A stretch of DNA of 64,000 nt from a virus (lineage: Duplodnaviria > Heunggongvirae > Uroviricota > Caudoviricetes). Where the stretch lies: IMG/VR virus record IMGVR_UViG_3300021256_000058, positions 117,823-181,822 of that record. The stretch is one strand, 5' to 3'. The notes under the pieces were generated by a model. The model saw nothing but the letters and a program-made list of their open reading frames with translations, was not told the DNA's origin and made no database searches. The translations under genes were made by a program, and so were the position numbers. Shown here piece after piece: positions 32,768-62,086 of this stretch; positions within the stretch are counted from its first letter, which is position 1; each line of letters opens with the position of its first letter.

Positions 32768-32796
32768 ATTATAACATATTTTTTTCTAAAAAGCAA
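32768..32796 (-). promoter_or_regulatory. sigma70/sigmaA-type promoter TTGCTT-N17-TATAAT on the - strand
   Basis: Seen on the + strand as attata...aagcaa with an exact 17-nt spacer. It lies upstream of the polymerase start. Confidence 0.6.
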
Positions 32797-32797
32797 G

Positions 32798-34033
32798 TTA
32801 AGCTCCCACCATGATGAGAGTCTTACTTGCACGAGTCGCCAATGTATAGAGATATTGAGTATATTCAATTTTATCTCTATTTCTAAGCCAGGGGGCATCA
32901 AATCCAAGGACTAGATCCCATTCACTACCTTGAGCTTTCCAAGTAGTAATCGCATAACCATAAGCAAAGTCATAAGGCGCAAGTGGTGGTATAGTAGTAC
33001 CTTTGTAATTCTTTAGGTATGTATTAATACGATAGATTGTCTTAGGATCAAGGCTCGGAGTGCCTGTCCGCAGTTGGTCATAATCTATTGGCACCTGTTC
33101 AAATATATCTCCATCTTCCATAGTTATTTCACTAACCAGAAGATCAACAGGATGAGCGCGCAGGTGCTCTGGATAATGTTCTGTATACTTTTTGAATTTT
33201 GTAAGCTTTCCAATAGCGCCATTTGTAAGGGCGGTCATTTGAGTGCTAAGAAAATCCCAATGATTATGCAGACCGATAACTTTATCACCAATCTCAGGAT
33301 CAGCCCCTCTACCAAGGTATCTGCGGGCTGCCTGATTCAGGCTATTGCGCTGGGCATTTGTAGAACAAAGCACCTGGTCTGCGCCAAGTAAACAACCGAT
33401 ATAATCTTCTTCATTCGCATATAGTTCTTTTGAGCTTTTTATAATGCGGACTTCTCCACTCACGTTTCCGAAATCTTTAAAATCTTTACCAGCTCGAATA
33501 TCCATGGACAGGCGAATGATAGCAGAATCCTGGGCCTGCCGCATAATTTCATCAAGAAAGATATGCGGATGGTCCAGGACTCCGTTGATTTGTGTCTTGT
33601 CTATAGGCGGCAACTGACCAGGATCTCCGCAAGCCAAGACATAAATTCTATGTCTAAGCAGCAATTCCCACATATCTTTTGGTAACATTGATACTTCATC
33701 TACTACAATTAATTTATAATTATCTTCCAGTGATACTTTTGGTCGAAATATATATCCGCCACTCGGCATCTGCTTTGCATAGTAGAGAAGTTTATGAGCT
33801 GTTGTTGCATTGGGACAGCCTTTTTGTTTTAAAACATTGGCTGCCTTCCCAGTATATGCCACATATGCGATTTCAGATTCGTGAAGATTAAGAGCCGCAA
33901 TAATAAACTTAATTAGAGTAGACTTTCCACTTCCAGCATAGCCAGAAATAACAGTATAAGGTTCGCCATTTTTAAAGCGCTCAACCGCAATTTTAAGTCC
34001 CTCTTCCTGTTTTCTTGTTAGTTCCATCTTCAT
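32798..34033 (-). CDS. SF1 DNA helicase (RecD/Dda-like)
   Basis: Walker A GYAGSGKST, Walker B VVDEVSML and the C-terminal motif TTWKAQGSEWD. It ends in TAA. Confidence 0.7.
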   Translation of the reverse strand: MKMELTRKQEEGLKIAVERFKNGEPYTVISGYAGSGKSTLIKFIIAALNLHESEIAYVAYTGKAANVLKQKGCPNATTAHKLLYYAKQMPSGGYIFRPKVSLEDNYKLIVVDEVSMLPKDMWELLLRHRIYVLACGDPGQLPPIDKTQINGVLDHPHIFLDEIMRQAQDSAIIRLSMDIRAGKDFKDFGNVSGEVRIIKSSKELYANEEDYIGCLLGADQVLCSTNAQRNSLNQAARRYLGRGADPEIGDKVIGLHNHWDFLSTQMTALTNGAIGKLTKFKKYTEHYPEHLRAHPVDLLVSEITMEDGDIFEQVPIDYDQLRTGTPSLDPKTIYRINTYLKNYKGTTIPPLAPYDFAYGYAITTWKAQGSEWDLVLGFDAPWLRNRDKIEYTQYLYTLATRASKTLIMVGA

Positions 34034-34062
34034 TCCTCATATTTCATTTTCTTATTTATTAT

Positions 34063-34091
34063 ATTATATCATATTATTTATTAAAAGTCAA
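34063..34091 (-). promoter_or_regulatory. sigma70-type promoter TTGACT-N17-TATAAT
   Basis: + strand attata 34063-68 and agtcaa 34086-91, with a 17-nt spacer. It lies upstream of the helicase start at 34033. Confidence 0.65.
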
Positions 34092-34372
34092 TATATTACA
34101 TATCGAGTGATTACTTCTTCATATACATTAACATTATATTTCTTTTTTAAGTATCCAGAGAATTCGTCTACAGTATAAGAGTTCCATAAATCACCTTCGA
34201 AGAAATCATGATTTTGCTGATCTGCGAAATCATTATATTCGTCCTCTAATTCTGCCATCATATCTTCTAAATCAGTATGTTTCTTTATATATGGCGTTAA
34301 ATCAATTTGATCCAATACTTCTTCTGTAATACGAATGTCATCTTCATAGCTATATTTTTGGTAATGTTTCAT
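34088..34372 (-). CDS. acidic hypothetical protein
   Basis: An intact 94-aa ORF ending in TGA. Confidence 0.45.
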   Translation of the reverse strand: MKHYQKYSYEDDIRITEEVLDQIDLTPYIKKHTDLEDMMAELEDEYNDFADQQNHDFFEGDLWNSYTVDEFSGYLKKKYNVNVYEEVITRYVIY

Positions 34373-34448
34373 AATTTACCTCAAAAAATACCCAAAGGAT
34401 TTTTAATTCTTGCGAACGATATGGACGCTCCTCGCCGGCCGGAGCAGT

Positions 34449-36128: not shown

Positions 36129-36184
36129 TAGTACCTATTCTACTGGGCTAAGCCCTGGCACCATTGGTGCTATCAATTCATATC

Positions 36185-37285: not shown

Positions 37286-37494
37286 AGGTCAGTTAAAACC
37301 CTCACACACTTACCTTTAACCATACCGGTTTTATTAACATAATCACAAAGGAACTTCTGAGGCGGCATCTTTGCGTCCTCTCCCTTGCGGCTATCCAAAA
37401 GACGTTTTGCAAATAGCTTAGTCATTTTATATTCAACCGGGCCATAGAACGGCTTGCTCCATACATGTTCTGCATTAGTCTCTACAATTTTCAT
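37282..37494 (-). CDS. hypothetical protein
   Basis: An intact 70-aa ORF overlapping the primase start. Confidence 0.4.
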   Translation of the reverse strand: MKIVETNAEHVWSKPFYGPVEYKMTKLFAKRLLDSRKGEDAKMPPQKFLCDYVNKTGMVKGKCVRVLTDL

Positions 37495-37639
37495 AATTAA
37501 TCTCCTATATAATTACTTGTATCAATATCTACAACAATTTTATCGCAATATTTATCAAATTCTTCTTGAGTAGGTCTATCCATTATCCAACGATTTTGAA
37601 ATTGAATAAAATCCTCTTCACTCTAAAAGCCAGTTCCCA

Positions 37640-39172: not shown

Positions 39173-39833
39173 CTATTACCTCATCTTCGTCTAAAAACGA
39201 GAACAATTCTTTTCTTTTAATTTTTCTTTGCGGTAAAGGGATATGAATCTCCCTAACTTCTGGTACATACTCATTCATATCCTTATCTTTATTTTTATTA
39301 TTGGCCAGCCATATACTATAATAATAATTATAAGCTGCTTTATATACAAATGGAACGATACCAATGCCATCATTAGCCTTTTCAATTCCATGCTCTTGAA
39401 TTTCATAAAAATATTTCAGAGCTTTTAAGATTCCACTATATGTAAAATTATAATCATTCACATATTGATTAATTTGTTTCTTAATCCTTGGAGAAACATA
39501 ATCAATATGAAATAGATTCATAATATAATCATCTAATTTTTCCGCATCAGTTTTTTCTCTTCTTTTTTCTTGTTCGTAACAAACTGAATGAGCATATTTA
39601 CCATTAAAAAATTGATATGGAGTTTTAGATTTACTAAATTGCTTTTTACAATATACACATGTTACAATATCAAGTGGATCAACTATAGGAACTGTTGGCC
39701 ATTCTGGATGTGATACTCGTCCTCTAAGGTAACAATCCGCATGAGCATAACGTCTTGTTTTCAATTCTACATATGCTGTACGATCTCGATCAAAACGCTC
39801 GCCGCAGATTTGACAAGTAACTTGATGGGCCAA
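39165..39833 (-). CDS. zinc-ribbon protein, possible helicase loader
   Basis: Contains two C..C...H..CY ribbons. Its end overlaps the helicase start by 8 nt. Confidence 0.45.
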   Translation of the reverse strand: MAHQVTCQICGERFDRDRTAYVELKTRRYAHADCYLRGRVSHPEWPTVPIVDPLDIVTCVYCKKQFSKSKTPYQFFNGKYAHSVCYEQEKRREKTDAEKLDDYIMNLFHIDYVSPRIKKQINQYVNDYNFTYSGILKALKYFYEIQEHGIEKANDGIGIVPFVYKAAYNYYYSIWLANNKNKDKDMNEYVPEVREIHIPLPQRKIKRKELFSFLDEDEVIDE

Positions 39834-39856: not shown

Positions 39857-39885
39857 ATTATACCATATTTTTAGAAAAAAATCAA
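39857..39885 (-). promoter_or_regulatory. sigma70-type promoter TTGATT-N17-TGgTATAAT (extended -10)
   Basis: + strand tattataccat ... aaaaaatcaa with an exact 17-nt spacer. Confidence 0.65.
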
Positions 39886-39926
39886 CCCAAGGTGGAATTC
39901 ACCCTGGGTTGAGTTTTAGTTCTATT

Positions 39927-41902: not shown

Positions 41903-41904
41903 TA

Positions 41905-42279
41905 TTAATTATTATCTCCTTCAAAATCATCAATATTAAATGTCTTACCTTTTTCAGTTAATACATAAACGACAGGGTCTTGTCCCACTTTTTCACAGAA
42001 ACCATCTGTGGTCAATTTTCTGAGTGTACCAGACACTCCACGTGAAGTAATCCCCATTCCTTCTGCAACTTCCTTTGCCTTAAACATCGGAAGACTTGAA
42101 TTCTGAAGATACTTCAAAACTTTTGCGCCATTTTCCGTAAGAACTGGCTTATCGGACTTCTGACCGGACAGCATATCAATATATGACTGAACATTTTCAG
42201 TCATGAGATCATTTGCAACATCCGGCGCAGCTTCCATCAACGCATTTAGAAACTTCAAAAATTCTTCTTTCATTTTCAA
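41905..42279 (-). CDS. winged-helix-like DNA-binding protein
   Basis: 124 aa. The C-terminal TSRGVSGTLRKLTTDGF..VYVLTEKG reads as a wHTH. Confidence 0.4.
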   Translation of the reverse strand: MKMKEEFLKFLNALMEAAPDVANDLMTENVQSYIDMLSGQKSDKPVLTENGAKVLKYLQNSSLPMFKAKEVAEGMGITSRGVSGTLRKLTTDGFCEKVGQDPVVYVLTEKGKTFNIDDFEGDNN

Positions 42280-42310: not shown

Positions 42311-42339
42311 ATTATACCATATTTTATTAATAAAATCAA
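42311..42339 (-). promoter_or_regulatory. sigma70-type promoter TTGATT-N17-TGgTATAAT
   Basis: + strand attataccat 42311-20 and aatcaa 42334-39, with a 17-nt spacer. Confidence 0.65.
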
Positions 42340-43719: not shown

Positions 43720-43986
43720 TTAGGTCTCGTCAGCATCTGGGTCAAGAGCCATACCAGCATCAGTGAGCTGGAGGAACTTAACCTGCTTATGAGTTCCATC
43801 TTCAAGCTCGATCTCGGCAGGAACGCGCACGCCATAGCCCTTGCGCTGAATAGCACTTGTGAAAATACCATCTACCTGGCGCTTCTCGAGGCCAACTGCA
43901 TTTGCAACATCCTCGGAAGTGAGATCAGCACCGTGATTCTGCTTCAAATAATTAAGTACGTTCTTAGAATTCTCTTTCATAGCCAT
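43720..43986 (-). CDS. small HTH DNA-binding protein
   Basis: 88 aa containing the helix-turn-helix-like segment LTSEDVANAVGLEKRQVDGI. Confidence 0.5.
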   Translation of the reverse strand: MAMKENSKNVLNYLKQNHGADLTSEDVANAVGLEKRQVDGIFTSAIQRKGYGVRVPAEIELEDGTHKQVKFLQLTDAGMALDPDADET

Positions 43987-44051
43987 AATAATCTTTTTCT
44001 CCTTAAAATTGTTTCAATAATTTTTTTTTGTCGTAGGCTTTTTACATATAT

Positions 44052-44080
44052 ATTATAGCAAAAAATTTTCTGATTGTCAA
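44052..44080 (-). promoter_or_regulatory. consensus sigma70 promoter TTGACA-N17-TATAAT
   Basis: - strand ttgacaatcagaaaattttttgctataat. Both hexamers are perfect, the spacer is 17 nt, and it sits about 60 nt upstream of the 43986 start. Confidence 0.75.
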
Positions 44081-44085: not shown

Positions 44086-44268
44086 TTATTCTAAATATTT
44101 TTGAATCAGTTCATCCAGTTGATCAATTTCAAAAATACTAACGTGTTCTGTCAACTTTAGGATTTCATCTTTTGCTTTTTCAACGACAGTTGAATCGGTT
44201 GAAGTTTGAATCTATTTTTCATACTCGGCAATTTTCTTCGCCAAGTTCTTCAACTCTTTTTGTTTCAT
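44086..44268 (-). CDS. small hypothetical protein of 60 aa with 1 in-frame TAG
   Basis: An ATG follows an aaaggaaagag RBS. The product is M K Q K E L K N L A K K I A E Y E K -TAG- I Q T ... and ends in TAA. Confidence 0.35.
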
Positions 44269-44301
44269 CGGGAATTTCTCTTTCCTTTATTTTACAAATA
44301 T

Positions 44302-44330
44302 ATTATACTACTTTTTTTTAAAAAAGTCAA
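44302..44330 (-). promoter_or_regulatory. sigma70-type promoter TTGACT-N17-TATAAT
   Basis: + strand attata 44302-07 and agtcaa 44325-30, with a 17-nt spacer. Confidence 0.6.
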
Positions 44331-46349: not shown

Positions 46350-46378
46350 TATTATAACATAAATTTTAAAAATTGTCA
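46350..46378 (-). promoter_or_regulatory. consensus sigma70 promoter TTGACA-N17-TATAAT
   Basis: - strand ttgacaatttttaaaatttatgttataat upstream of ligA. Confidence 0.7.
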
Positions 46379-46379
46379 A

Positions 46380-50280: not shown

Positions 50281-52123
50281 CCATTAAACTCATAAACGTT
50301 TTTGCAACTTCTTCTGCATCATCCATTGTAATACGCTTTAAAGTACGAGTTTCTGGGTTCATAACTGTCTCTGCCATTTCTGCGGGATCCATTTCGCCAA
50401 GACCTTTCATGCGGCCCAGCTCAAATGATCTCCCAACTGTTTTACGAAACTGTTCCAAAGCTGCATCATCTTTGATATACTGAAATTTAGTCCCCATTGT
50501 AGCCTTGTAGAGAGGTGGAACTGCCGCATAGATATAGCCTTTTTCCAAAAGCTCAGGAGCGAACTTCCAGATGAAAGTAAGGAACAGTATGCGGATATGG
50601 CTTCCATCTACATCAGCATCGGCTGTAATGACTATCTTTCCATAACGAAGTTTAGATTCGTCTACAATGACTTTGCCATCTTTAACCTCCAAACCAAAAG
50701 CCTTAATCATACCATCAATTTCTTGATTTCCAAGAGCTTTGTGGAGATCAGCTTTAATTGTATTTAAAATTTTTCCTCGAACAGGAAATACCGCCTGAGT
50801 ATTGCGGTTGCGGGCCTCTTTAGTCGAGCCTGCAGCAGATTTACCTTCTACTATAAAGACCTCACACTCAGAACGATTTTTTGAACTGGCATCTGCGAGC
50901 GTACCAGGCAGGACCGCACGCGCTTTCGCATCGGCTTTCCGCACTGTTTCTTTAGCCTTTTTAGCTTTTTCTCTTGCAGTTCGCGCTAAAAGTGCTTTAT
51001 CAACAATAGCTTTTGCGTCTTTTGGATGATTATTCAGCCAAATACTTAATTCTGTTGATACCAAACGCTGCACAACTGTTCTGGCTTCACTTGAAGAAAG
51101 GACTTCTTTTGTTTGACCACTAAAGACTGGGTCTGGCATAATAAATGAAAGGACAAGAGACAGTCCTTCCTTCAGTTCATCGCCCAGGATATTTGCATCT
51201 TTTTCTTTCAATAAGTTGTTCGCTCTCGCATATTCATTAATTGACATGGTTAGAGCCGTTCTAAAACCAGTAAGATGCGTTCCTCCAGTATTTGGTATGC
51301 TATTGGTATACAGCTTATAAGTATCTGAATAGGTATCATTATACTGCATAGCCAGTTTAACACTAATTCTATCTTCGGTATTTTCACAAAAAAACACTGA
51401 AGTTAAAGGCTTTTTAGATTTATTTAAATCTTCGATATAATCCAAAATGCCATTTTTAGAAACAATAGTTTCTTGCTCTTTATTCTTATATTTAAGAGTA
51501 AATGTAAGACCCGGAGAAAGGTAAGCCAATTCTTGAATTTGCTTTTTTAAGGACTCATAATCTAATTCAATACCCTCTTTAAAGATCTCTTCATCAGGGG
51601 TAAATGAAATCTCAGTTCCAGTTTCTTTTCCGGTATATTTATTAACAATAAAATTAACTCTTTTACCTTTTTTAAATTCCATTGTGGCAATTTTACCATC
51701 ACGAATGGAAGTTACAGTAAAAGTTTTAGAAAGTGCATTTGTAGCTTTTGCACCAACGCCATTCATACCACCAGAAGTATTATATCCTGTTTTACCAGAA
51801 CTATCAAACTTTGCACCAGTATGAAGCTTTGTAAAAATATTCTCAAGAGTTTCAGATCCATCTTTTGCGGGACCAAACGGGACACCGCGTCCATTATCAG
51901 AAATGCAAACTGAATCATTATCTTCCACTCTTATTTTACATTCTGTGCAATAACCATTAAGATATTCGTCAACTGCGTTTGAAATAATCTCAAGAGTGAT
52001 ATGTTTTACGCCATCCGGCCCGACTGACCCGATATACATACCAGGACGCAGCCTGATCGCTTCAATACCTTCAAGTGTTTTTATGTCTTTAACGCCATAA
52101 TTAACCTTTACAGGCACTATCAT
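50213..52123 (-). CDS. type II DNA topoisomerase B subunit (GyrB/ParE-like)
   Basis: 636 aa with the GHKL ATPase motif EIISNAVDE, the EGKSAAGS motif and the TOPRIM motif PVRGKILN. Confidence 0.85.
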   Translation of the reverse strand: MIVPVKVNYGVKDIKTLEGIEAIRLRPGMYIGSVGPDGVKHITLEIISNAVDEYLNGYCTECKIRVEDNDSVCISDNGRGVPFGPAKDGSETLENIFTKLHTGAKFDSSGKTGYNTSGGMNGVGAKATNALSKTFTVTSIRDGKIATMEFKKGKRVNFIVNKYTGKETGTEISFTPDEEIFKEGIELDYESLKKQIQELAYLSPGLTFTLKYKNKEQETIVSKNGILDYIEDLNKSKKPLTSVFFCENTEDRISVKLAMQYNDTYSDTYKLYTNSIPNTGGTHLTGFRTALTMSINEYARANNLLKEKDANILGDELKEGLSLVLSFIMPDPVFSGQTKEVLSSSEARTVVQRLVSTELSIWLNNHPKDAKAIVDKALLARTAREKAKKAKETVRKADAKARAVLPGTLADASSKNRSECEVFIVEGKSAAGSTKEARNRNTQAVFPVRGKILNTIKADLHKALGNQEIDGMIKAFGLEVKDGKVIVDESKLRYGKIVITADADVDGSHIRILFLTFIWKFAPELLEKGYIYAAVPPLYKATMGTKFQYIKDDAALEQFRKTVGRSFELGRMKGLGEMDPAEMAETVMNPETRTLKRITMDDAEEVAKTFMSLMGESVGPRKQFIEDNAWRANIDV

Positions 52124-52150
52124 ATTCCTCCTTTTTTATTTTATACATAT

Positions 52151-52179
52151 ATTATACCATAATTTTTTTACTTTTGCAA
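52151..52179 (-). promoter_or_regulatory. sigma70-type promoter TTGCAA-N17-TGgTATAAT
   Basis: + strand attataccat 52151-60 and ttgcaa 52174-79, with a 17-nt spacer. Confidence 0.6.
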
Positions 52180-52208
52180 ATTTTTGTTTTCAAGACAAAA
52201 CAAAAAAA

Positions 52209-52235
52209 TCCCAAGGGATGTATTACCCCTTGGGA
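52209..52235 (-). terminator. hairpin terminator after the holin-like gene
   Basis: tcccaaggg / cccttggga inverted repeat followed on the - strand by a T-run. Confidence 0.6.
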
Positions 52236-52240
52236 TTAGT

Positions 52241-52558
52241 TTATCCGACTGGCGTATCGTCATAAGTTTCAACGCCACGAATCATTTTTTCATAATTAAT
52301 ACCATCTTTGGTATTCTCTTTCTCTGACTTTTTATAGAAAAAAGCCTAACTTACGCCATATGCTCCCCATGGCATTGACACCATGGCAGTTAGCCAGGGC
52401 AGTTCACCGAAATACTACTTGACAATACAATAAAATGCGAGTATAATAAAAGATAGAGTTGTAATCCAAATTAAAATTGATTCTTGTACAAGAAGTTTTT
52501 TGGAGAACTCAAGAGGTTTCTTTTTCTTTGTCTCTTGGGTTTTTTCTTCTTCAGACAT
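52241..52558 (-). CDS. holin-like 2-TM membrane protein with 2 in-frame TAG
   Basis: The ATG is embedded in the endolysin 3' end as gATGtcTGA. The product has the TM helices ILIWITTLSFIILAFYCIV and LPWLTAMVSMPWGAYGV. It is 105 codons, ends in TAA and was missed by the ORF track. Confidence 0.45.
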
Positions 52559-53861
52559 CGAGAGTGTAGGTTAAGTCAATCCAACCTTCACGGTCGGCCA
52601 ACTTACCATATACTCCTTCTTGTTTAGTGATTACAACTTCTTCACCCTGATGCACTAAACCAAGAACTTCAGAATGCTTATTTGACTCGGCACGAATGTT
52701 CAAAGATTGCGCGGTAATACGCACTTTCTGCCCAGCTGCTACTGATGGTTTTGCCGTGCCTACTCCCCAGCGTGGTACACCATAGCCAGCAATTGAACTA
52801 TAACCAATAGGATAAGTGCGTCTTGCTACTTGGTCAGAAGAGTTGCCTTCAATAGTAACTACAGTAGTTGGGGTGACAGATTCTACGATACCAGTATGGT
52901 TAATACCACCACTGTAATAGAAGAAAATTTGAGAACCAACAGCAGGAGTATTACTCCATTGGCCTGCTGCTTTATAATAATCTGCGGAATAAGAACAAGC
53001 TGCTCCGCAATCACCAGTTTGGCAGATTAGGCGTTCTGCTTTTGCGCGATCGCGTCCGCATAGCACCCAATAGCACCAGTCCGCAAAAACATCGCACCAG
53101 GCATAGCCGTTTTTGTTCCCGTTATAATAACCCGCATTAGCTAAATCACGGGCATATTTTGTCCAGTTATTACCGCCCGCGTTTGCAGTTTTATCATCAA
53201 GCTAAGAATTGCTATTTTTCTCCCGATAGCCAATTTCCGCAGCTGCAATCTTAACTAAATTTTGCGGGGTAATATCTCCACTAACCACAGGAGTTGTGTC
53301 ATCTTTTGGTGTAACATCTGTGGTCGAATCGTCATGCTTATTTTCCTGTGCCTCTTGGATTAATTGTAAATATTTTGGATGAACGTTACCAGTTACCAAT
53401 CCAGTTTTCATAGTAGAAATTGTAACGCTACTACTGTTATTAATATTACGAACATATAAGTTCATTTTAAATAACCAACTTGGAATCTTTTGACCGGTAG
53501 TATATGTTGCACCATCTTTAAGTTTTACAATATCTCCGACAGAGAAATTCTTTACTTGTACTTGGTCATCATCTACAATGACCACGGTTGTCTTAGGATA
53601 GCTTGGATTGGTTACAGTATCTCCAAGAGCTTCATAGAGAGCTGTCCAGCTTTGTGGGCCAAATTCTCCATCTGGATCTAAGGAGTGCTCGGTCTAGAAC
53701 TTTATAACTGCGGCTAGGGTATTTGCCCCAAAATCGCCATCAGCGCCATCTGGGCCAAGGTCGTAACCTAATTCAATCAATTTAGTTTGCATATTTTGAG
53801 TATTAGAGCGATCTCTATTATTCAAACGCAATATAACTGATGGAACCGTTCTTACTGCCAT
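52551..53861 (-). CDS. endolysin: PG_binding_1 + CHAP amidase/peptidase + SH3b, with 2 in-frame TAG
   Basis: An ATG follows the RBS aaaggag. PG_binding_1 reads LGYDLGPDGADGDFGANTLAAVIKF-TAG-TEHSLDPDGEFGPQSW, with the TAG at the conserved FQ position. CHAP reads NGYAWCDVF...NHTGIVESV...EGNSS. The C-terminal SH3b reads KVRITAQSLNIRAE...WIDLTY. The track pieces 52551..53066 and 53202..53585 share a frame. Confidence 0.7.
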
Positions 53862-53884: not shown

Positions 53885-53915
53885 AAAAAGTAAGGTAGAA
53901 ATAAATTCTACCTTA
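53885..53915 (-). terminator. hairpin overlapping the phoH-like stop
   Basis: aaggtagaa-ataaatt-ctacctt. Confidence 0.5.
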
Positions 53916-55193
53916 CATCTGTTCTGCTATTGCTGCTATTCTGCTTCGATGAATCTTAGTAAGTGTTATTTCACCATAAATATCATGGCCTCTAAATACC
54001 TTTGATGCTCGACGCATACCGTTATTTATTCCAGCAAATGCGATATCATCTACCTAGGCTTTTTCGTCACCATCTATGATACAAATACTATCTTCACCAA
54101 TACGTTGTAATGCTAATTTCATCATCGCAATATCGAGGTTTTGAGCTTCTGAAATATAAATACCAGCTTTCATACCGGTAGTATCATAACCTCTAATATC
54201 AGATAATGGAAGTAGAAGTAATTTTTCTTCATCAATTAATTTTTCTACTTCAATTCTGCTGCCGATTTTACTAATAAGTAAATTACCTATCTAAGAATCA
54301 AGAAGTTTCTCTTCTCTTGTACCGGGCAGATAGCCCAATTTGGCAGCGCCTTTGACCGCAACCGTATTGCAAAATACAATTATCTTTTCAATTTTATGTT
54401 TCTCTAATAAGCTAAATAAATAGCCAAGAGAAAGAATGGTTTTACCAGTGCCCGCAGGACCTTTAATCATAGTAATTTTATTATGAACAAGACTATCTGC
54501 AACAAATTGCTGGTGAATATCACCTGGCATTGGTTTAACTGTTCCGAAATGATCGGATGTAAAAGATGTAAAATTAACTTGTCGCCATCCATCGACTGTG
54601 CGAACTAGTCTGTCTACTGGCTCGCCTTCTGGATTACGTAAGATAAGGTATTGATTTATTAAGCAGTCTATGTCGAATTTATGTGAATAGAAATCTGCCA
54701 TAGTTTGCTCATTGGGGCAAGTAAAATCCATTATACCCGTATATTCATCATCTTCTGGTTCTACTGATTCAAGCATTCCGTCGCCAAAGAAAATGTTAGC
54801 TATTTCAAATAAGCAAGCATCATTGGTTACAAAAATTACTTCATCAGTTCGGACATTATTATTATAATCTATCGCAGTTGCTAATATTTTTGTATCATTA
54901 TTTACAGAAAAATTCTTTTCTAAAATAGGAGCAAGCATATCTTCTGTAAAGATATGAACGTGATATTTACCTCTATTTTTTACTAATAAATTGGTTAAAA
55001 TTCTGGCTTTATATTTGGTATCATCATCTTTATTAGCATTAGTTTTGATAGATTCTAATTCTTGTAAAGTGATAGAAGAAATTACGAACTCTTCGTCAGT
55101 CTTAAAAAGAGTAGGAATTTTTAAGAGTAAAGAGCAAGTATCATAAAATCTTATATCAGTCATCATCGTCTTCTTCCTCCTCATAATATTCAT
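53913..55193 (-). CDS. PIN + PhoH-like ATPase (PhoH2/YlaK-type) with 2 in-frame TAG
   Basis: Walker A GPAGTGKT. The sequence continues across the TAG at 54291 into ..VDEAQN-type DIAMMKLALQRIGEDSICIIDGDEKA-TAG-VDDIAF.., and it ends in TAA. Confidence 0.65.
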
Positions 55194-55462: not shown

Positions 55463-55972
55463 TTATTTATTTTGGCCTTTATTACGGTTTCGTCTAATTG
55501 CTTGATAAAATCCTTCTTTTTCAGCTAAATATAAACGTAAACTAACCTTATGTTTATTAATCATTTCTTTAAATGTTGCAAGATCATCTTCATAATTGTG
55601 AATTTGACGTTGAAGCATTTTGTTCTCATATGATTTGGGATTAAAGTGAGTTGAATGTTTCATTGAATAATAAAGTTGTCTGAGAGCATTATATGCTGGT
55701 CGAAGTTCACAGTCTCTAACATAGCATAAATAATCTATATAAGCGCGTCGATATGCTACTTCCTACCCAACAGTGCGATTCTTAAAATCTACATCATCTG
55801 GATGGCAAGTGGCCGTCCCGCAGAATGTTTTACCATTATATTCAATTATACAACTGGCTATGCCAGTACTTTCATCCCAAGTAAATAAGGGCTCCGTAAG
55901 CATATGGTGTCCTCCTTTATTTAGTATATTAATATTATACCATAAATTTATAGAAAAAGCAAATCCGGACAA
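55463..55972 (-). CDS. hypothetical Cys-rich protein with 1 in-frame TAG (fusion of two track ORFs)
   Basis: The TAG at 55763-65 lies exactly 102 nt, in frame, upstream of the 55663 start, which links 55763..55972 and 55463..55663. Confidence 0.4.
55934..55962 (-). promoter_or_regulatory. sigma70-type promoter TTGCTT-N17-TGgTATAAT
   Basis: + strand attataccat and aagcaa with a 17-nt spacer. Confidence 0.6.
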
Positions 55973-56971: not shown

Positions 56972-56978
56972 TCACTTC

Positions 56979-57473: not shown

Positions 57474-57675
57474 TCTGAAAATCTTTTAAAAATTCTTGTA
57501 CTTCTTCTTCATTTGTGCATTCGATATGATTTACTGTTTGTTTACAATTCGGACAATAAAGCACCTTTCTGTGGAATTTACCGTGTTTATGATTATTTCT
57601 TCTACTAATTGGAATCCCGCGTTTACCGCAGTTCATACAATAAAATTCATGCGTTTCATAACTTGCCATCACCAT
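57409..57675 (-). CDS. zinc-ribbon protein
   Basis: CMNCGKR...CPNCKQT. Confidence 0.4.
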   Translation of the reverse strand: MVMASYETHEFYCMNCGKRGIPISRRNNHKHGKFHRKVLYCPNCKQTVNHIECTNEEEVQEFLKDFQNGVFKNEAQASISYVGSTRMW

Positions 57676-57698
57676 TACCTTCCTTTATCTTTAATTAT

Positions 57699-57727
57699 AT
57701 TATACCATATTTTAAATAAAAAATCAA
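57699..57727 (-). promoter_or_regulatory. sigma70-type promoter TTGATT-N17-TGgTATAAT
   Basis: + strand attataccat 57699-708 and aatcaa 57722-27, with a 17-nt spacer. Confidence 0.65.
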
Positions 57728-57744
57728 GAAAGGACTAAATATCT

Positions 57745-58110
57745 TTAGTCCTCTTCTCTCTCTTGGATTACAAAAATGTCTCCACGATGTTCCAACACAT
57801 CATATTTTTTAATTACTTCAATATAAGGCATATCTGAAAATTTAACCTCATAAATTGGTTTTTCTTTTGTAATAGGAACTTGATGGAAACAAGCTACTGA
57901 GCCGGCAATTGCTCCTGCTAAAATTAATATTAAAAACATTTCAGCTGGATCAAAATCTCCACGATTATTTATTCTATATCGCACATATGCAATTAGTCCA
58001 ATTAAAGCACCAATTCCCAGTAGTACTCCAAAAATCCACATATTATCAGGGTCTAGTCCCCAAGAACTTCCAATTTTAACTGTCTCTGTATACTGGTTCA
58101 CAATTTCCAC
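57745..58110 (-). CDS. membrane protein (2 TM)
   Basis: Contains the hydrophobic segments WIFGVLLGIGALIGLIAYV and LILILAGAIAGSVA. Confidence 0.45.
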   Translation of the reverse strand: MEIVNQYTETVKIGSSWGLDPDNMWIFGVLLGIGALIGLIAYVRYRINNRGDFDPAEMFLILILAGAIAGSVACFHQVPITKEKPIYEVKFSDMPYIEVIKKYDVLEHRGDIFVIQEREED

Positions 58111-58555
58111 TTTTAATTTCCTCCCGCACTTGCATTAAGATCTTACCAAGTCTATTTTCGCCAGGAATATTTTTGCATTTAGGACAATGACAATTTCCCC
58201 AAATATTATCATGCCATGTATTACCTTCCTCAAGTTCTTCATCACCAGTCTCCAGAAGCAATTCACGCAGATCAATCCAACGGAATTTCCCACGTACACC
58301 TTCCAACATTACGTCAGTTTTTATAGCGTTCCAGTCTGGGCGTAAGTCAACGTGTCTGCCTATACGCTTGGCTTCTCCTGGTGTGCTGGCCGCTGCTATT
58401 TCTCGCCTAATATTTAGGTCTTTTGTTTTCATAGCCTGAAAATAATGCTCTACTGTTGGGTAATCAATGATTTCTCCTTGACCCGGCTCTTCATGCACTG
58501 GAGATGGAGCAAAATTACTTAAAAAAGCATATTTCCCTTCAAAACTATCAATCAT
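58076..58555 (-). CDS. NADAR (YbiA/DUF1768) domain protein
   Basis: Contains YAFLSNFAPSPV...VEHYFQAMK...GEAKRIGR. It is 159 aa. Confidence 0.65.
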   Translation of the reverse strand: MIDSFEGKYAFLSNFAPSPVHEEPGQGEIIDYPTVEHYFQAMKTKDLNIRREIAAASTPGEAKRIGRHVDLRPDWNAIKTDVMLEGVRGKFRWIDLRELLLETGDEELEEGNTWHDNIWGNCHCPKCKNIPGENRLGKILMQVREEIKSGNCEPVYRDS

Positions 58556-58590
58556 ATTTTAAATCACCTTTATCTTTATTTTATATATAT

Positions 58591-58619
58591 ATTATACCAT
58601 ATTATTTAATAAAAATCAA
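58591..58619 (-). promoter_or_regulatory. sigma70-type promoter TTGATT-N17-TGgTATAAT
   Basis: + strand attataccat 58591-600 and aatcaa 58614-19, with a 17-nt spacer. Confidence 0.65.
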
Positions 58620-58631
58620 TATATAAAATAA

Positions 58632-58666
58632 ATACGGGACACATTATTATGTCCCGTATTTCTTAT
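58632..58666 (-). terminator. hairpin terminator
   Basis: atacgggaca-cattattat-gtcccgtat, followed on the - strand by a T-rich run. Confidence 0.6.
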
Positions 58667-58671
58667 TGACA

Positions 58672-59565: not shown

Positions 59566-59608
59566 TATTTAGTTTTCTCCTTTTATTCTATCTATAATGG
59601 CTTCCTTC

Positions 59609-60835
59609 TTAGCCGTGGAATTTAAGAAGGAAGCTATTGCTTACTGCTTTGAAAGATTTCTGACCATCAAGGCTACGCAAGACGAATCCCTCACGAGGTT
59701 TCCCATCGAGTTTAGAATTGCCTTCGGCCATAGCCAGAAGTCCATCAACATCAAGTCCATCGAACTTGAAATTACTATCTACTACTGGTACACAAGGTAC
59801 TTCATAGCCATTCAGCTCAATGATCATATCGAGAGTTCCCCAACGACCCTTATCTGAAGTGATTAGGTTAAAAGCCCGGAAATCATGATCTTCGATTGAA
59901 TAATCACGACGCTGGACTCCCGCGCCATAAGTTTCACCCTGGATAGTAACCCACTGAGCTTCTGGATGGTTCATCAGAAATTTATTGAGTACGTTGAACA
60001 TATCATATTTCTGAGCCATTTCCCAGTAAATATTGGTGTCATAATAGCAAGGTTTATCCACGCTATCAAAGCAGACGTTACGAGAACAAACGTAGAAATC
60101 ATTTTTTCTGTGTTTTCCACGCTTCATAGTGAAAGTAGTAGAACTACCATCAATTTTCTCGGTAACAATCCAATCCCCAGTATCATTAAGAATCCAAGGC
60201 ATATTCTGTACACGCTCTTCATCGGTTTTAGCTACCCATTCAGGCCAGCCATTTTTCTTATCTTTCTTTTTACCGAAAAGAACAAATAGAATCTTTTTAC
60301 CCCAAGTGCGTTTCATAAGCCAACGCACGAAAGGCTTACGGAAGATCGCAGGATGGCGCTGAGCCATCTTTTTATATTTATCTGCGGAAGGAGCTTTTCT
60401 CTGGTTATCTTCAGCATCAGCGTAAGTCACACCAAGTTCTTTAGTAAGAAAACGAGACTCACCATCAGCGTACCAAATACGAGAATTATCTTTAGGATCA
60501 TAAATAAGAACATGTCCATCTGCGTCAAGGCCATTTTTCCAACCAAAATCTTCTGCGTGCATAAGGAGACCCTGAGAAAGAACTTTACACATTTTAAGGG
60601 TTTTGACTTTATAATTGCGTTTCTCAAGAAATGCAAAGCATTCCTTATCTGCGGGAACACGAGAGTCAATTTCAAAATAGATTGCAGGATCACCAACTTT
60701 AAACTGGCCTTTCTGCACAATTACTCGCCAGCCACCAACGGTAGCATGTTCTACTCGGTCATAGCCAGGGATAGGATCAATTCCATCTATGGTTACTACA
60801 TATGCAAGCTCACGCTCGCTGTTTGCATTTAGCAT
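59609..60835 (-). CDS. ATP-dependent RNA/DNA ligase-family nucleotidyltransferase
   Basis: The KxDG adenylation motif, in WIVTEKIDGSSTTFTM, sits around residue 225 of 408. Confidence 0.55.
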   Translation of the reverse strand: MLNANSERELAYVVTIDGIDPIPGYDRVEHATVGGWRVIVQKGQFKVGDPAIYFEIDSRVPADKECFAFLEKRNYKVKTLKMCKVLSQGLLMHAEDFGWKNGLDADGHVLIYDPKDNSRIWYADGESRFLTKELGVTYADAEDNQRKAPSADKYKKMAQRHPAIFRKPFVRWLMKRTWGKKILFVLFGKKKDKKNGWPEWVAKTDEERVQNMPWILNDTGDWIVTEKIDGSSTTFTMKRGKHRKNDFYVCSRNVCFDSVDKPCYYDTNIYWEMAQKYDMFNVLNKFLMNHPEAQWVTIQGETYGAGVQRRDYSIEDHDFRAFNLITSDKGRWGTLDMIIELNGYEVPCVPVVDSNFKFDGLDVDGLLAMAEGNSKLDGKPREGFVLRSLDGQKSFKAVSNSFLLKFHG

Positions 60836-60856
60836 TTTTGAACACTCCTTTCTATT

Positions 60857-61090
60857 TTAATAATCTATTTCATCATATTGTTTTAATTCTTCGTTAAAAT
60901 AATATTGAATCTGATGAATTGTATAATCAATACCATTAGCATAGGCATTACAAGTTGCTTCATAATGCCATCCATTAGGTCTATTGCCTTGCTCATAACC
61001 GAGCCTTTCTTCTCTGCCTAATTTATAATGAAGTTCTTTTTCTCGTTTTAAACTTTCTACGAGATTACCTATTTTAATAAATGTTTCCAT
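60857..61090 (-). CDS. hypothetical protein
   Basis: An intact 77-aa ORF ending in TAA. Confidence 0.4.
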   Translation of the reverse strand: METFIKIGNLVESLKREKELHYKLGREERLGYEQGNRPNGWHYEATCNAYANGIDYTIHQIQYYFNEELKQYDEIDY

Positions 61091-61283
61091 TTATTTCTCC
61101 TTCAAGCAAGGCGCATACTCTATCACAAGCATCATCTTTCTCTGCTTCAGTTATTTTACGCCATTTCCAAGCCCAACTAATATAATCGGCTATGGAAGAA
61201 ATGGAACGCTCATAGTATCCATGTTTCTCATGCTGTTTAATGGCGCGATCAATTTTTTCATAGACAGTCATATTAATCCTCAC
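61074..61283 (-). CDS. hypothetical protein
   Basis: An intact 69-aa ORF. Confidence 0.4.
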   Translation of the reverse strand: MRINMTVYEKIDRAIKQHEKHGYYERSISSIADYISWAWKWRKITEAEKDDACDRVCALLEGEINGNIY

Positions 61284-61842
61284 ATTTTCTCAGCACATAA
61301 TTACCAAACTTAATTGATACAGTCGGATTGGCGGCCTTCTTCACTTTTTCAAACGTCTCAAGAACGCCTTTCGGGTTGCTCGACAAAGATTTATCTGCCA
61401 GCATAAGAGCTTTGGCAACATCGAACTCAACTTTGACCCCGTTCATAAAGACTTTTGTCACTGGAGCCGATTCCGCACCAGGGGCGCTGACCGCATGTAT
61501 CGCCTGATCTTCTTTAGCTCTTTTGGTGTTTTCTTCCTTAGTAACCCATTCCAAATTTTTGAGAGAGTTATCTCTGGTATTATGATTCAGATGATCGACG
61601 GTGAGATTCGCGTAGTTAGGAACTGGATTGAAAGTCTGCATAACCAGTCTATGTACGAGTTTCCCTTTATAGACAAGGTAATTATCTTTTACACCAACTG
61701 TCTGCAGAACGCCATTCTTATCTTTGATGCGCCCAAGAGAGGAAACATAAATATCCAAAGCCATACAATATTTCCATTTCTCAATCCCAAAATGGATCTG
61801 CGGACGCAAGAATTTAATCTTTTCTTTGACTGTCATAATCAT
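61273..61842 (-). CDS. HNH homing-endonuclease-like protein
   Basis: Contains LTVDHLNHNTRDNSLKNLEWVTKEEN, an HNH motif, and has a NUMOD-like N-terminus. Confidence 0.6.
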   Translation of the reverse strand: MIMTVKEKIKFLRPQIHFGIEKWKYCMALDIYVSSLGRIKDKNGVLQTVGVKDNYLVYKGKLVHRLVMQTFNPVPNYANLTVDHLNHNTRDNSLKNLEWVTKEENTKRAKEDQAIHAVSAPGAESAPVTKVFMNGVKVEFDVAKALMLADKSLSSNPKGVLETFEKVKKAANPTVSIKFGNYVLRKCED

Positions 61843-62024
61843 CAGCTCCTAACGGTTTTAGTATAATAAGCAATCGTCATAATATATCCAGGTAAAGATT
61901 CATGAGCATAACACATTGTCACACTAACAACTCGATCAGAGAAATGTAATTCTGACCAATATTTTAATTTCTCATTTGCGTCATTTTGATCTTGTACCCA
62001 TATATTTTCAACTTGAAGATACAT
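61842..62024 (-). CDS. hypothetical protein
   Basis: An intact 60-aa ORF. Confidence 0.35.
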   Translation of the reverse strand: MYLQVENIWVQDQNDANEKLKYWSELHFSDRVVSVTMCYAHESLPGYIMTIAYYTKTVRS

Positions 62025-62057
62025 AATTTTTTAATTCCTTATCAACTTTGTATATAT

Positions 62058-62086
62058 ATTATAACATTTTTTTTATTAAAAATCAA
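62058..62086 (-). promoter_or_regulatory. sigma70-type promoter TTGATT-N17-TATAAT
   Basis: + strand attataacat 62058-67 and aatcaa 62081-86, with a 17-nt spacer. Confidence 0.6.

What the first reader, a model, noticed from the sequence alone, without database searches (positions are those of the whole stretch)
32768..62086. Twelve - strand promoters share TTGAYW-N17-(TGn)TATAAT with an exact 17-nt spacer and appear as a tattatacCAT ... aaaatcaa motif
The instances lie at 32768, 34063, 39857, 42311, 44052, 44302, 46350, 52151, 55934, 57699, 58591 and 62058. Three have perfect TTGACA and TATAAT hexamers, and most have a TG at -15/-14. Nearly every early operon has one. A weaker -10-only copy lies near 63194. 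Extended -10 promoters with a near-consensus -35 are typical of Firmicutes sigmaA and not of Bacteroidota. Early transcription therefore appears to rely fully on the host holoenzyme. The late module on the + strand has no such motif, which suggests a different late-promoter recognition.
Basis: seen in the sequence. Interest (0 to 1): 0.55.

Follow-up and report, generated by a model that had tools for sequence, protein, structure and literature searches.

The report
Host-type promoters of a rumen phage
Twelve near-identical, near-consensus bacterial "housekeeping" promoters sit in front of the replication and nucleotide-metabolism operons of a large sheep-rumen phage. They are real and conserved across the phage family, but they are an ordinary example of a phage using its host's RNA polymerase.

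Summary
Twelve minus-strand sites carry TTGNNN-N17-TATAAT with an exact 17-nt spacer, and 11 also have TG at -15/-14 (11 matches against 0.17 expected from shuffles). They form a discrete class: 18-41 bits leave-one-out, against about 15 for the best shuffle hit and 12 for the next real hit. Each lies in an intergenic gap, co-oriented with genes, 23-37 nt (65 in one case) before a start codon. Most of those starts have a Shine-Dalgarno sequence, and five sites sit directly behind a terminator hairpin.

In 84 related loci (1.5 Mb) the motif occurs 248 times on the gene strand and never on the other. Eleven of the 12 positions have orthologous copies in relatives. A T(-1)A(+1) start element outside the scoring matrix is also conserved.

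The same promoter type fills the non-structural regions of a cultured Enterococcus faecium phage with the same gene order, and is missing from its 51-kb structural block. The phage has an SPbeta-like replication module, uses TAG as a sense codon, and most likely infects a Clostridia (Bacillota) host.

The best reading is strong host sigma-A promoters with the Firmicutes-type TRTG extended -10. This is a new member of a known kind. No 5' ends were mapped, "early" and "fully host-dependent" remain inferences, and one of these promoters heads an operon that contains the TAG-recoded lysis genes.

The parts
62058..62086 (-). Promoter P62086: TTGATT-17-TATAAT with TG. Predicted start A at 62051; 27-nt leader to the ATG at 62024 (small ORF, HNH, RNA ligase and Band_7 unit).
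   Evidence: (leave-one-out 36.9 bits). Orthologue in L100 at 1110.
62099..62125 (-). Intrinsic terminator hairpin plus T-run, immediately upstream of P62086.
   Evidence: GGCAGACGATTAATTCGTCTGCC followed by TTTTTTT.
58591..58619 (-). Promoter P58619: TTGATT-17-TATAAT with TATG. Predicted start A at 58584; leader to the ATG at 58555 (NADAR gene).
   Evidence: (40.8 bits).
58630..58661 (-). Terminator hairpin upstream of P58619.
57699..57727 (-). Promoter P57727: TTGATT-17-TATAAT with TATG. Predicted start A at 57692; ATG at 57675.
   Evidence: (37.2 bits). Orthologue in L100 at 4508.
57729..57754 (-). Terminator hairpin that abuts P57727. The -35 hexamer and the T-rich 5' part of the spacer (TTC TTGATTTTTT) also serve as its T-tract.
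55934..55962 (-). Promoter P55962: TTGCTT-17-TATAAT with TATG. Predicted start A at 55927; ATG at 55903. It heads the unit of small ORFs, PhoH/PIN, lysin and a holin-like gene, whose genes contain in-frame TAG.
   Evidence: (31.1 bits). Orthologues at L100 6143, L101 6655, L102 5589 and L103 3831.
52151..52179 (-). Promoter P52179: TTGCAA-17-TATAAT with TATG. Predicted start A at 52144; ATG at 52123 (GyrB, RNase H, GyrA).
   Evidence: (18.5 bits). The alignment with four relatives conserves only the terminator, TTG, TATG-n-TATAATAT and the Shine-Dalgarno sequence.
52207..52237 (-). Strong terminator hairpin that ends the lysis-gene unit, upstream of P52179. The stem covaries in relatives.
46351..46379 (-). 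Promoter P46379: perfect TTGACA-17-TATAAT with TATG; ATG at 46318 (NAD-dependent DNA ligase).
   Evidence: (33.9 bits). Orthologues at L100 15799 and L101 15964.
44302..44330 (-). Promoter P44330: TTGACT-17-TATAAT, the only one without TG. It overlaps the ligase stop codon. Predicted start G at 44295; ATG at 44268 (60-aa ORF with one TAG).
   Evidence: (29.8 bits). Orthologues at L100 17821 and L102 17685.
44052..44080 (-). Promoter P44080: perfect TTGACA-17-TATAAT with TG. It has the longest leader (59 nt) to the ATG at 43986. The unit also includes a GIY-YIG gene with 11 TAG codons.
   Evidence: (18.2 bits). Orthologues at L100 18069, L101 18172 and L102 17940.
42311..42339 (-). Promoter P42339: TTGATT-17-TATAAT with TATG; ATG at 42273 (winged-helix protein, then YorF-like and AAA_24/YorG-like genes).
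   Evidence: (32.9 bits). Orthologues in L004-L007, L100 and L103.
39857..39885 (-). Promoter P39885: TTGATT-17-TATAAT with TATG; TTG start at 39833 (YorH-like, then DnaB helicase).
   Evidence: (31.0 bits). Orthologues at L004 4692, L005 2954 and L006 3499.
39886..39908 (-). Terminator hairpin (CCCAGGGTGAATTCCACCTTGGG) that touches the -35 hexamer of P39885. TTGATTTTTTT is its T-tract.
   Evidence: -26 kcal/mol for the 82-nt stretch folded.
34063..34091 (-). Promoter P34091: TTGACT-17-TATAAT with TATG; ATG at 34033 (Dda-like helicase).
   Evidence: (35.1 bits). Near-orthologous sites in L004-L007 and VRE9_4.
32768..32796 (-). Promoter P32796: TTGCTT-17-TATAAT with TATG; ATG at 32737 (DNA polymerase III alpha). 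No further strong site lies downstream as far as 19.7 kb.
   Evidence: (37.5 bits). Orthologues in L004-L007 and VRE9_4, aligned.
63194..63202 (-). Weak candidate: extended -10 only (TGGTATAAT), with no -35, 30 nt before the ATG at 63163 (metallophosphatase).
   Evidence: It does not reach the matrix threshold.

Best explanation
The twelve sites are strong promoters read by the host's primary-sigma (sigma-A / sigma-70 family) RNA polymerase holoenzyme. They drive the replication, nucleotide-metabolism and accessory operons on the minus strand of a 172.6-kb SPbeta-like, TAG-recoded rumen siphophage that most likely infects a Bacillota (Clostridia) host.

Proposed mechanism (inferred from established sigma-70-family biology, not tested here):
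- Sigma region 4.2 binds TTGAYW at -35.
- Sigma region 3.0 binds the TRTG / TG extended -10.
- Sigma region 2 melts TATAAT.
- The invariant 17-nt AT-only spacer, T-rich at its 5' end and A-rich at its 3' end, gives optimal spacing.
- The AT-rich discriminator and a T(-1)A/G(+1) start element place initiation 7 nt after the -10.

The transcripts have 17-31-nt leaders (59 nt in one case), most with an AAGGAGG-type ribosome-binding site. Many units are insulated from the upstream unit by an intrinsic terminator. In two or three cases the T-tract of that terminator is the -35 hexamer and the start of the spacer.

Shown here: the motif exists, is highly non-random, sits before genes on the gene strand, and is conserved in position and consensus across the phage family while the flanks diverge.

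Inferred: that it is bound by host sigma-A holoenzyme, that it fires early, and that the host is a Firmicute.
For: - Non-randomness: 11 TG-containing matches against 0.17 expected. Leave-one-out scores of 18-41 bits against a null maximum of about 15, with a clear gap to the next real hit at 12 bits.
- Position: 12 of the 24 minus-strand gaps of at least 35 nt hold a site. The distance from the -10 to the start codon is 23-37 nt in 11 of 12 sites.
- Terminator-promoter junctions at five sites.
- Family conservation: 248 hits of at least 18 bits on the gene strand and 0 on the opposite strand in 84 related loci totalling 1.50 Mb. 164 of the hits are non-redundant.
- Independent start element: T(-1) at 85% and A(+1) at 92%, seven nt after the -10. 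These positions lie outside the scoring matrix.
- Positional orthologues for 11 of 12 sites in relatives whose flanking proteins are 57-89% identical.
- Alignments show conservation confined to -35, TRTG, -10 and the Shine-Dalgarno sequence, with covarying upstream terminator stems.
- Cultured E. faecium phage VRE9_4 has the same gene order. It has 56 TTG-N20-TATAAT sites, 42 with TG, most co-oriented with the non-structural genes. Its 51-kb structural and lysis block has none on the coding strand.
- No RNA polymerase or sigma domain was found in the window proteins scanned with Pfam, and YonO has no tblastn hit.
- Literature: TRTG is common in Firmicutes; a Y(-1)R(+1) start element is centred 7 bp after the -10; the discriminator is AT- or AG-rich in Terrabacteria; Bacteroides deviates from the consensus (PMC12641261).
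Against: - No transcript 5' ends, no binding data and no timing data exist.
- The host is not identified, only inferred.
- About 100 kb of the genome was not available, so a phage-encoded sigma factor, polymerase or polymerase modifier cannot be excluded.
- Several small ORFs in the window have no annotation, and the TAG-recoded large plus-strand proteins were not scanned against Pfam.
- The motif is more uniform than typical host promoter sets (TATAAT 12 of 12, spacer 17 nt 12 of 12, AT after the -10 12 of 12). This could reflect an extra phage-specific requirement rather than selection for strength alone.
- SPbeta itself, the type relative, has no such sites in its yoq-yos region.
- One of these promoters heads the unit that contains the lysis genes, which does not fit a simple "early" label.
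Confidence: 0.85

Rival explanations
1. The sites are sigma-A-type promoters, but they are not an "early" class. They fire throughout infection, or as a middle class. The true immediate-early promoters lie outside the window. Timing of the products is set elsewhere, for example by in-frame TAG codons that need a suppressor tRNA, or by terminator read-through.
For: - P55962 heads a unit whose genes all carry in-frame TAG, and the unit ends with the lysin and a holin-like gene.
- A conserved terminator sits directly before the lysin ribosome-binding site.
- In VRE9_4 two sequence flavours of the promoter occupy different genome blocks, which suggests sub-classes.
- The genes served are replication and nucleotide-metabolism genes, which are delayed-early or middle in many large phages (general knowledge).
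Against: Nothing in the sequence gives timing. The promoters are close to consensus and need no obvious activator, which is how phage early promoters usually look.
Confidence: 0.3
2. Recognition needs a phage-encoded factor, either a sigma-70-family sigma or a polymerase modifier or appropriator. The extra conserved positions (the A-tract before TRTG, AT after the -10, the TA start) would be its signature rather than marks of promoter strength.
For: - The sites are unusually uniform.
- About 100 kb of the genome is unseen.
- ADP-ribose-related genes occur near the promoters: NADAR in the window, and ADP-ribosylglycohydrolase or Macro domains in relatives.
Against: - Every conserved position matches what is described for host promoters in Firmicutes and Terrabacteria (PMC12641261).
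- No sigma domain was found in the window proteins scanned.
- First-wave genes cannot depend on a factor that has not yet been made, unless it is packaged in the virion.
Confidence: 0.08
3. The motif is the promoter of a phage-encoded RNA polymerase, such as a YonO-like, virion-packaged or T7-like enzyme.
For: SPbeta-group phages can encode YonO, and YonO homologues occur in Clostridium, Enterocloster and Thomasclavelia phages.
Against: - YonO has no tblastn hit in the window, its 9-kb flank or any held relative locus.
- VRE9_4 and phAss-1 carry the motif but gave no YonO hit.
- A bipartite -35/-10 with a 17-nt spacer and TG is the signature of sigma-70-family holoenzymes, not of single-subunit or YonO-type enzymes.
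- In SPbeta, YonO is reported to serve late genes (PMC5467207; abstract and search listing only).
Confidence: 0.02
4. The repeats are not promoters. They would be operators, recombination or packaging signals, or AT-rich low-complexity sequence that matches the consensus by chance.
For: The window is AT-rich (36% G+C). The generic promoter scan finds 87 weak matches against 77 expected, so the loose consensus alone means little.
Against: - The strict motif exceeds the shuffle expectation about 65-fold.
- It is strictly co-oriented with genes: 248 to 0 in relatives.
- It sits at a fixed distance before ribosome-binding sites and behind terminators, and it carries a start element at +1.
Confidence: 0.02

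Closest known systems
Sigma-A promoters of Bacillus subtilis and other Firmicutes with the -16 region TRTG (extended -10)
   Same: TTGACA-like -35, 17-nt spacer, TRTG at -17 to -14, TATAAT, AT- or AG-rich discriminator, and a Y(-1)R(+1) start 7 nt after the -10. These features are as summarised in PMC12641261, read. The window sites show TATG in 9 of 12 and TG in 11 of 12.
   Different: The phage set is far more uniform than a host promoter set: TATAAT and the 17-nt spacer are invariant. The preferred -35 is TTGATT or TTGACT rather than TTGACA. No upstream UP-like element is conserved, and that space is often taken by a terminator.
Near-consensus early promoters of lytic phages that rely on host holoenzyme (T4 and T5 early promoters in E. 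coli; SPO1 and phi29 early promoters in B. subtilis). Recalled from general knowledge, not checked here.
   Same: Many closely spaced, very strong host-type promoters in front of short early operons, with a separate system for late genes.
   Different: The timing and strength of the present sites are unmeasured. The genome also recodes TAG, and one such promoter precedes the lysis genes.
Promoter-like sites of Enterococcus faecium phage VRE9_4 (PP680570) and its EF1-type relatives, found in this analysis
   Same: Same gene order: YorF, YorG, YorH, DnaB, YorJ, RecJ, Dda helicase, DnaE, guanylate kinase, then dUTPase and a resolvase. Same motif before the orthologous helicase and DnaE genes. No co-oriented copy in the structural block.
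   Different: VRE9_4 uses the standard code and has TAATTATAAAGT after the -10 rather than ATATATAGA. DnaE is only 38.8% identical.
Bacteroidota primary-sigma promoters (TTTG at -33, TAnnTTTG at -7)
   Same: Nothing beyond being AT-rich.
   Different: TAnnTTTG is not enriched upstream of genes: 4 of 55 against about 3 expected. The observed motif is the canonical sigma-70 type, from which Bacteroides thetaiotaomicron is reported to deviate (PMC12641261).

Membership tests
Sigma-70 / sigma-A (primary sigma) promoters, Firmicutes extended -10 (TRTG) type | A -35 hexamer resembling TTGACA | tested here: met
   TTG is invariant in 12 of 12 and A is at position 4 in 9 of 12. In 164 non-redundant sites from relatives, TTG is at 98-100% and A at 87% (these positions were used for selection).
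Sigma-70 / sigma-A (primary sigma) promoters, Firmicutes extended -10 (TRTG) type | A -10 hexamer TATAAT, separated from the -35 by 17 +/- 1 nt | tested here: met
   TATAAT in 12 of 12 and a spacer of exactly 17 nt in 12 of 12.
Sigma-70 / sigma-A (primary sigma) promoters, Firmicutes extended -10 (TRTG) type | TG at -15/-14, as TRTG at -17 to -14 | tested here: met
   TG in 11 of 12 and TATG in 9 of 12.
Sigma-70 / sigma-A (primary sigma) promoters, Firmicutes extended -10 (TRTG) type | Located upstream of, and co-oriented with, genes. The start site is about 7 nt after the -10, with a pyrimidine at -1 and a purine at +1. | tested here: met
   All 12 are intergenic and co-oriented. T(-1) followed by A or G(+1) occurs in 8 of 12 window sites. 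In the family, T(-1) is at 85% and A(+1) at 92%, at positions outside the matrix. This is sequence evidence only.
Sigma-70 / sigma-A (primary sigma) promoters, Firmicutes extended -10 (TRTG) type | Transcription actually initiates there, by the host primary-sigma holoenzyme | not testable with these tools
   No RNA or biochemical data are available. See the decisive next steps.
Sigma-70 / sigma-A (primary sigma) promoters, Firmicutes extended -10 (TRTG) type | The host belongs to Bacillota | tested here: inconclusive
   Only indirect evidence:
- The nearest cultured relatives infect Enterococcus and Bacillus.
- phAss-1 is predicted to infect Clostridia (PMC10607447).
- The permease homologues are from Clostridia MAGs.
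- The lysin has CHAP and SH3 domains.
- 37 of 55 genes have a Shine-Dalgarno core.
There is no CRISPR spacer or prophage link.
Bacteroidota sigma-ABfr promoters | TAnnTTTG at -7 (with TTTG at -33) upstream of genes | tested here: not met
   4 of 55 genes have TAnnTTTG within 100 nt upstream, which equals the background rate of 0.056 per 100 nt.
Promoters of phage-encoded RNA polymerases (YonO-type, virion-packaged or T7-like) | A phage RNA polymerase gene in the genome | tested here: inconclusive
   None was found among the minus-strand window proteins scanned with Pfam, and YonO has no tblastn hit in the window or flanks. However, about 100 kb of the 172.6-kb contig could not be read, and the large TAG-recoded plus-strand proteins were not scanned.

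The most novel reading that the evidence does not exclude
In this phage lineage the lysis cassette (PG-binding/CHAP/SH3 lysin plus a holin-like gene) is not under a late promoter. It lies in the replication-gene orientation, inside a unit headed by one of these consensus host-type promoters (P55962). It is separated from the upstream PhoH gene only by a conserved intrinsic terminator that abuts the lysin ribosome-binding site. In the TAG-recoded members of the family, every gene of the unit carries in-frame TAG.

On this reading, lysis timing is set after initiation, by terminator read-through and by the arrival of a TAG suppressor, rather than by promoter class. This would be a concrete, testable case of the proposal that stop-codon recoding gates lytic genes.
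Probability: 0.25. Interest if true: 0.55.

Novelty: new member of a known kind. Interest (0 to 1): 0.25.

Why it matters
The finding gives a clean, family-wide promoter model (TTGAYT, T-rich then A-rich 17-nt spacer, TATGn, TATAAT, AT..TA+1) for a large, uncultured group of gut and rumen siphophages related to SPbeta and to the Enterococcus EF1/VRE9 phages.

The model has practical uses:
- It defines transcription units.
- It supports a Bacillota host assignment for TAG-recoded phages that are otherwise hard to place.
- It provides 12 predicted start sites that can be checked directly in rumen metatranscriptomes.

It does not change how phage transcription is understood. Strong host-type promoters before phage replication genes are textbook. 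The one thread of wider interest is that the same promoter type precedes operons with TAG-recoded genes, including the lysis genes. That bears on whether recoding acts as a translational timer.

Tried and rejected
- Megablast of 12 kb of the window against 50,697 phage records found nothing.
- The GyrB protein alone against IMG/VR found nothing. An alignment of helicase homologues was needed to reach relatives.
- The tRNA scan and the Rfam scan of the whole window found nothing, so no suppressor tRNA or known RNA element lies in the window.
- An exact look-up of the 131-aa protein at the window end, intended to extend past 64 kb, was not on record.
- YonO, the late RNA polymerase of SPbeta, was fetched and searched against the window and all held loci by tblastn. 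There was no credible hit.
- A crAss-like or Bacteroidota origin was considered because of the TAG recoding. It was rejected because the replication module is SPbeta-like (YorF, YorH, DnaE, DnaB, RecJ), the nearest cultured relatives infect Firmicutes, and TAnnTTTG is not enriched.
- The plus-strand perfect consensus at 52419-52447 was considered as a thirteenth promoter. It lies inside a coding region, lacks TG and the family features (8.5 bits), and is kept only in the closest relative. It was left as an aside.
- A first pattern search used a wrong spacer length and returned nothing.
- Two literature queries failed on syntax, and one on the Enterococcus phages was uninformative.
- Neither paper on related recoded phages (bioRxiv 10.1101/2021.08.26.457843 and PMC10607447) mentions promoters.

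Full report
**What is there**

All twelve sites are present on the minus strand at the coordinates given. The only correction is that 46350 should be 46351. Read 5' to 3' on the minus strand, each site is TTGNNN, exactly 17 nt, then TATAAT.

- TTG-N20-TATAAT occurs 15 times in the window, against 2.96 +/- 1.87 in dinucleotide shuffles.
- With TG at -15/-14 added, it occurs 11 times against 0.17 +/- 0.40, and all 11 are among the twelve.
- A position matrix built from the sites gives leave-one-out scores of 18.2-40.8 bits. The best hit in 20 locally shuffled windows scored 15.3. The next best real hit in the 64 kb scored 12.2. The twelve therefore form a discrete class, not the top of a continuum.
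- The consensus is TTGAyT, then a T-rich followed by an A-rich spacer, then TATGg, TATAAT, AT.
- Nine sites have the full TATG, eleven have TG, and two have a perfect TTGACA. The third perfect pair in the window is on the plus strand at 52419-52447.

**Where the sites lie**

I built a minus-strand gene list that allows for TAG read-through. With it, 12 of the 24 intergenic gaps of at least 35 nt contain one of these sites. The best promoter-like match in each of the other 12 gaps scores at most 10.5 of 14.

- The distance from the end of the -10 to the start codon is 23-37 nt in eleven cases and 65 nt in one.
- If transcription starts 7 nt after the -10, the leaders are 17-31 nt (59 nt for P44080). 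Most start codons have an AAGGAGG-type ribosome-binding site in front.
- Five sites (62086, 58619, 57727, 52179, 39885) lie directly behind a G+C-rich hairpin with a T-run, which looks like an intrinsic terminator.
- At 39885 and 57727 the -35 hexamer and the T-rich start of the spacer are themselves the terminator's T-tract.
- No strong site lies between 32.7 and 19.7 kb. P32796 may therefore serve a long unit running from DnaE through guanylate kinase, NrdD and NrdG to the permease, dUTPase and a RuvC-like gene.

**What the genome is**

The window is identical to part of a 172,581-bp sheep-rumen metagenome scaffold: 0 mismatches over the 11,379 nt that could be compared.

The minus strand encodes the following:
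- Replication genes: DnaE-type DNA polymerase, DnaB, a RecJ-like exonuclease, a Dda-like helicase, and YorF- and YorH-like proteins.
- DNA topology and repair genes: gyrase A and B, an NAD-dependent ligase and RNase H.
- Nucleotide-metabolism and accessory genes: NrdD/NrdG, an RNA ligase, NADAR and PhoH.

The gene order matches the yorE-yorL block of Bacillus phage SPbeta. It matches Enterococcus faecium phage VRE9_4 even more closely. By DnaE, the nearest catalogued phages (about 38-39% identity) are phAss-1, the Enterococcus EF1/VRE9 phages and the SPbeta group.

The phage reads TAG as a sense codon. The plus-strand tail-fibre region (1579-18883) forms ORFs of 406-2497 codons only if TAG is read through. 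Several minus-strand genes also carry in-frame TAG. phAss-1 is likewise TAG-recoded and was predicted to infect Clostridia (PMC10607447).

Other host hints are indirect:
- The lysin has CHAP and SH3 domains.
- 37 of 55 genes have a Shine-Dalgarno core.
- The bacterial homologues of the permease come from Acutalibacteraceae and Ruminococcaceae MAGs.

**Conservation in relatives**

Homologues of the Dda-like helicase led to 84 related loci totalling 1.50 Mb (46-69% helicase identity), from ENA assemblies and IMG/VR.

- The window-derived matrix finds 248 hits of at least 18 bits on the gene strand and none on the other strand. 164 of the hits are non-redundant.
- Selection by the matrix makes the logo circular for the positions inside it. 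The two positions just outside it are still conserved: T at 85% and A at 92%. They fall exactly at -1 and +1 if initiation is 7 nt after the -10.
- G then rises to 35-48% some 19-24 nt after the -10, where a ribosome-binding site would lie.
- Four more loci around GyrB homologues (80-89% identity) were added. With them, 11 of the 12 window sites have a counterpart before the orthologous gene in at least one relative. P58619 is the exception.
- Alignments upstream of DnaE and GyrB show that only TTG, TATG-n-TATAATAT, the ribosome-binding site and, for GyrB, a terminator with compensatory stem changes are kept. The rest has diverged.
- The motif is the same in a TAG-recoded relative (L100) and in standard-code relatives (L101-L103).

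**A cultured anchor**

In 127 kb of the 134-kb VRE9_4 genome (host E. faecium, standard code) there are 56 TTG-N20-TATAAT sites, 42 of them with TG. Most are co-oriented with the non-structural gene blocks. These include sites before the orthologous helicase, DnaE and guanylate kinase genes. The 51-kb structural and lysis block has none on its coding strand.

phAss-1 has four sites in the 44 kb examined. SPbeta has none in its yoq-yos region.

**Interpretation**

Every conserved element corresponds to a described element of primary-sigma promoters: -35, a 17-nt spacer with a T-rich part next to the -35, TRTG, -10, an AT-rich discriminator, and a Y(-1)R(+1) start element 7 bp after the -10. TRTG and the AT- or AG-rich discriminator are noted as typical of Firmicutes and Terrabacteria, and Bacteroides as the outlier (PMC12641261). 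TAnnTTTG, the Bacteroidota -7 motif, is at background level upstream of genes.

The simplest reading is strong host sigma-A promoters, and I put it at about 0.85. Recognition by the host enzyme, the "early" label and the host phylum are inferences.

- No RNA polymerase or sigma domain was found among the minus-strand window proteins scanned.
- YonO, the SPbeta polymerase reported for late genes (PMC5467207, seen), has no hit in the window or held loci.
- About 100 kb of the genome was out of reach, and the recoded plus-strand proteins were not scanned.

**The late module**

No copy of the motif lies on the plus strand of the window or in the 9.3 kb upstream of it. That region has almost no intergenic DNA, so the absence on its own says little. 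The motif-free structural block of VRE9_4 makes a different late mechanism plausible. What that mechanism is remains unknown.

**A complication**

P55962 heads a unit of small ORFs, PhoH/PIN, a lysin with PG-binding, CHAP and SH3 domains, and a holin-like gene. The unit ends at the strong terminator upstream of P52179.

- The four genes I checked in this unit (the ORF at 55903, PhoH, the lysin and the holin-like gene) each carry 1-2 in-frame TAG codons.
- A hairpin terminator (53890-53916) sits between the PhoH stop codon and the lysin ribosome-binding site, with no room for a -35/-10 promoter.
- That terminator is conserved, with different stem sequences, in L100 and in L102/L103. The PhoH, lysin, holin, GyrB gene order is conserved in L100, L102 and L103, and partly in L101, which has a lysin but no called holin.

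So the lysis genes sit behind an "early-type" promoter. This is the basis of the novel reading I give at 0.25.

**Verdict**

The feature is a textbook kind of element in a newly described phage lineage: a new member of a known kind, of modest interest.

Noticed in passing
window 1579-18883 (+); minus-strand genes at 55903-55463, 55193-53913, 53861-52551, 52558-52241, 47219-46380, 44268-44086, 43653-42661 and 20858-20355: TAG is read as a sense codon. The plus-strand tail-fibre-like genes form ORFs of 406-2497 codons only with TAG read-through (5-18 in-frame TAG each). Eight minus-strand genes also carry in-frame TAG: 11 in a GIY-YIG gene and 6 in a RuvC-like gene. No tRNA gene lies in the window.
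   Followed up: partly
window 52419-52447 (+): A perfect TTGACA-17-TATAAT on the plus strand, inside the holin-like ORF and pointing antisense into the lysin gene. The chance expectation for a perfect pair in the window is roughly 0.04-0.13 (my own estimate from base composition). It lacks TG and the family features (8.5 bits). It is retained with one change in the closest relative (L100 at 9702) but is absent in more distant relatives.
   Followed up: partly
window 53890-53916 (-), with the lysin start at 53861: A hairpin terminator overlaps the PhoH stop codon and is followed at once by the lysin ribosome-binding site. It is conserved, with different stem sequences, in L100 and in L102/L103, and is absent in L101. 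The lysin therefore seems to depend on read-through, or on a -10-only element (TATATT, TATAAG or TATAAT) just after the T-run.
   Followed up: partly
window 53861-52241 (-); L100 8251-9880, L102 7739-9846, L103 5981-8088: The lysis cassette (lysin plus a small membrane protein) lies between PhoH and GyrB, in the orientation of the replication genes and not with the structural genes. This arrangement is conserved in relatives, although the lysin domains differ (CHAP against Phage_lysozyme2/ELLD).
   Followed up: partly
L100 compared with L101-L103 (loci around GyrB homologues): The close relative L100 has in-frame TAG in the same genes as the window: PhoH 8, lysin 1, holin 1, GIY-YIG 7. Relatives with about 80% GyrB identity have none in the orthologous genes. 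The code change is therefore recent within this lineage, and the promoter motif is unchanged across it.
   Followed up: partly
window 43987-44045 (-), the leader of P44080: This is the only long leader (59 nt). It contains AAGCCTACGACAAAAAA, which is also present after the orthologous promoter in L100. L101 and L102 have a small hairpin-like AGCT...AGCTT element at the same place. It may be a regulatory leader.
   Followed up: no
window 1397-7806 (+); L091, L092 and L093: Three contigs carry the identical 218-aa protein (window 723-1379) but have different numbers and sizes of Laminin_G_3 (LamG) genes downstream. This looks like a rapidly shuffling receptor-binding cassette.
   Followed up: no
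window 22628-23878 (-); L008: A xanthine/uracil permease gene is carried by the phage. A copy that is 74% identical sits on a 9.9-kb contig binned into a Clostridia MAG. The nearest clearly bacterial homologues (35-36% identity) are from Acutalibacteraceae and Ruminococcaceae.
   Followed up: partly
Enterococcus phage VRE9_4, PP680570: 51-113 kb compared with 115-127 kb: Two flavours of the promoter occupy different genome blocks. One has an AT-only spacer with TGATATAATTAATTATAAAGT. The other has TTGACA with a G+C-containing spacer and TGCTATAATAAnnATAGAAAG. They may represent two temporal classes.
   Followed up: no
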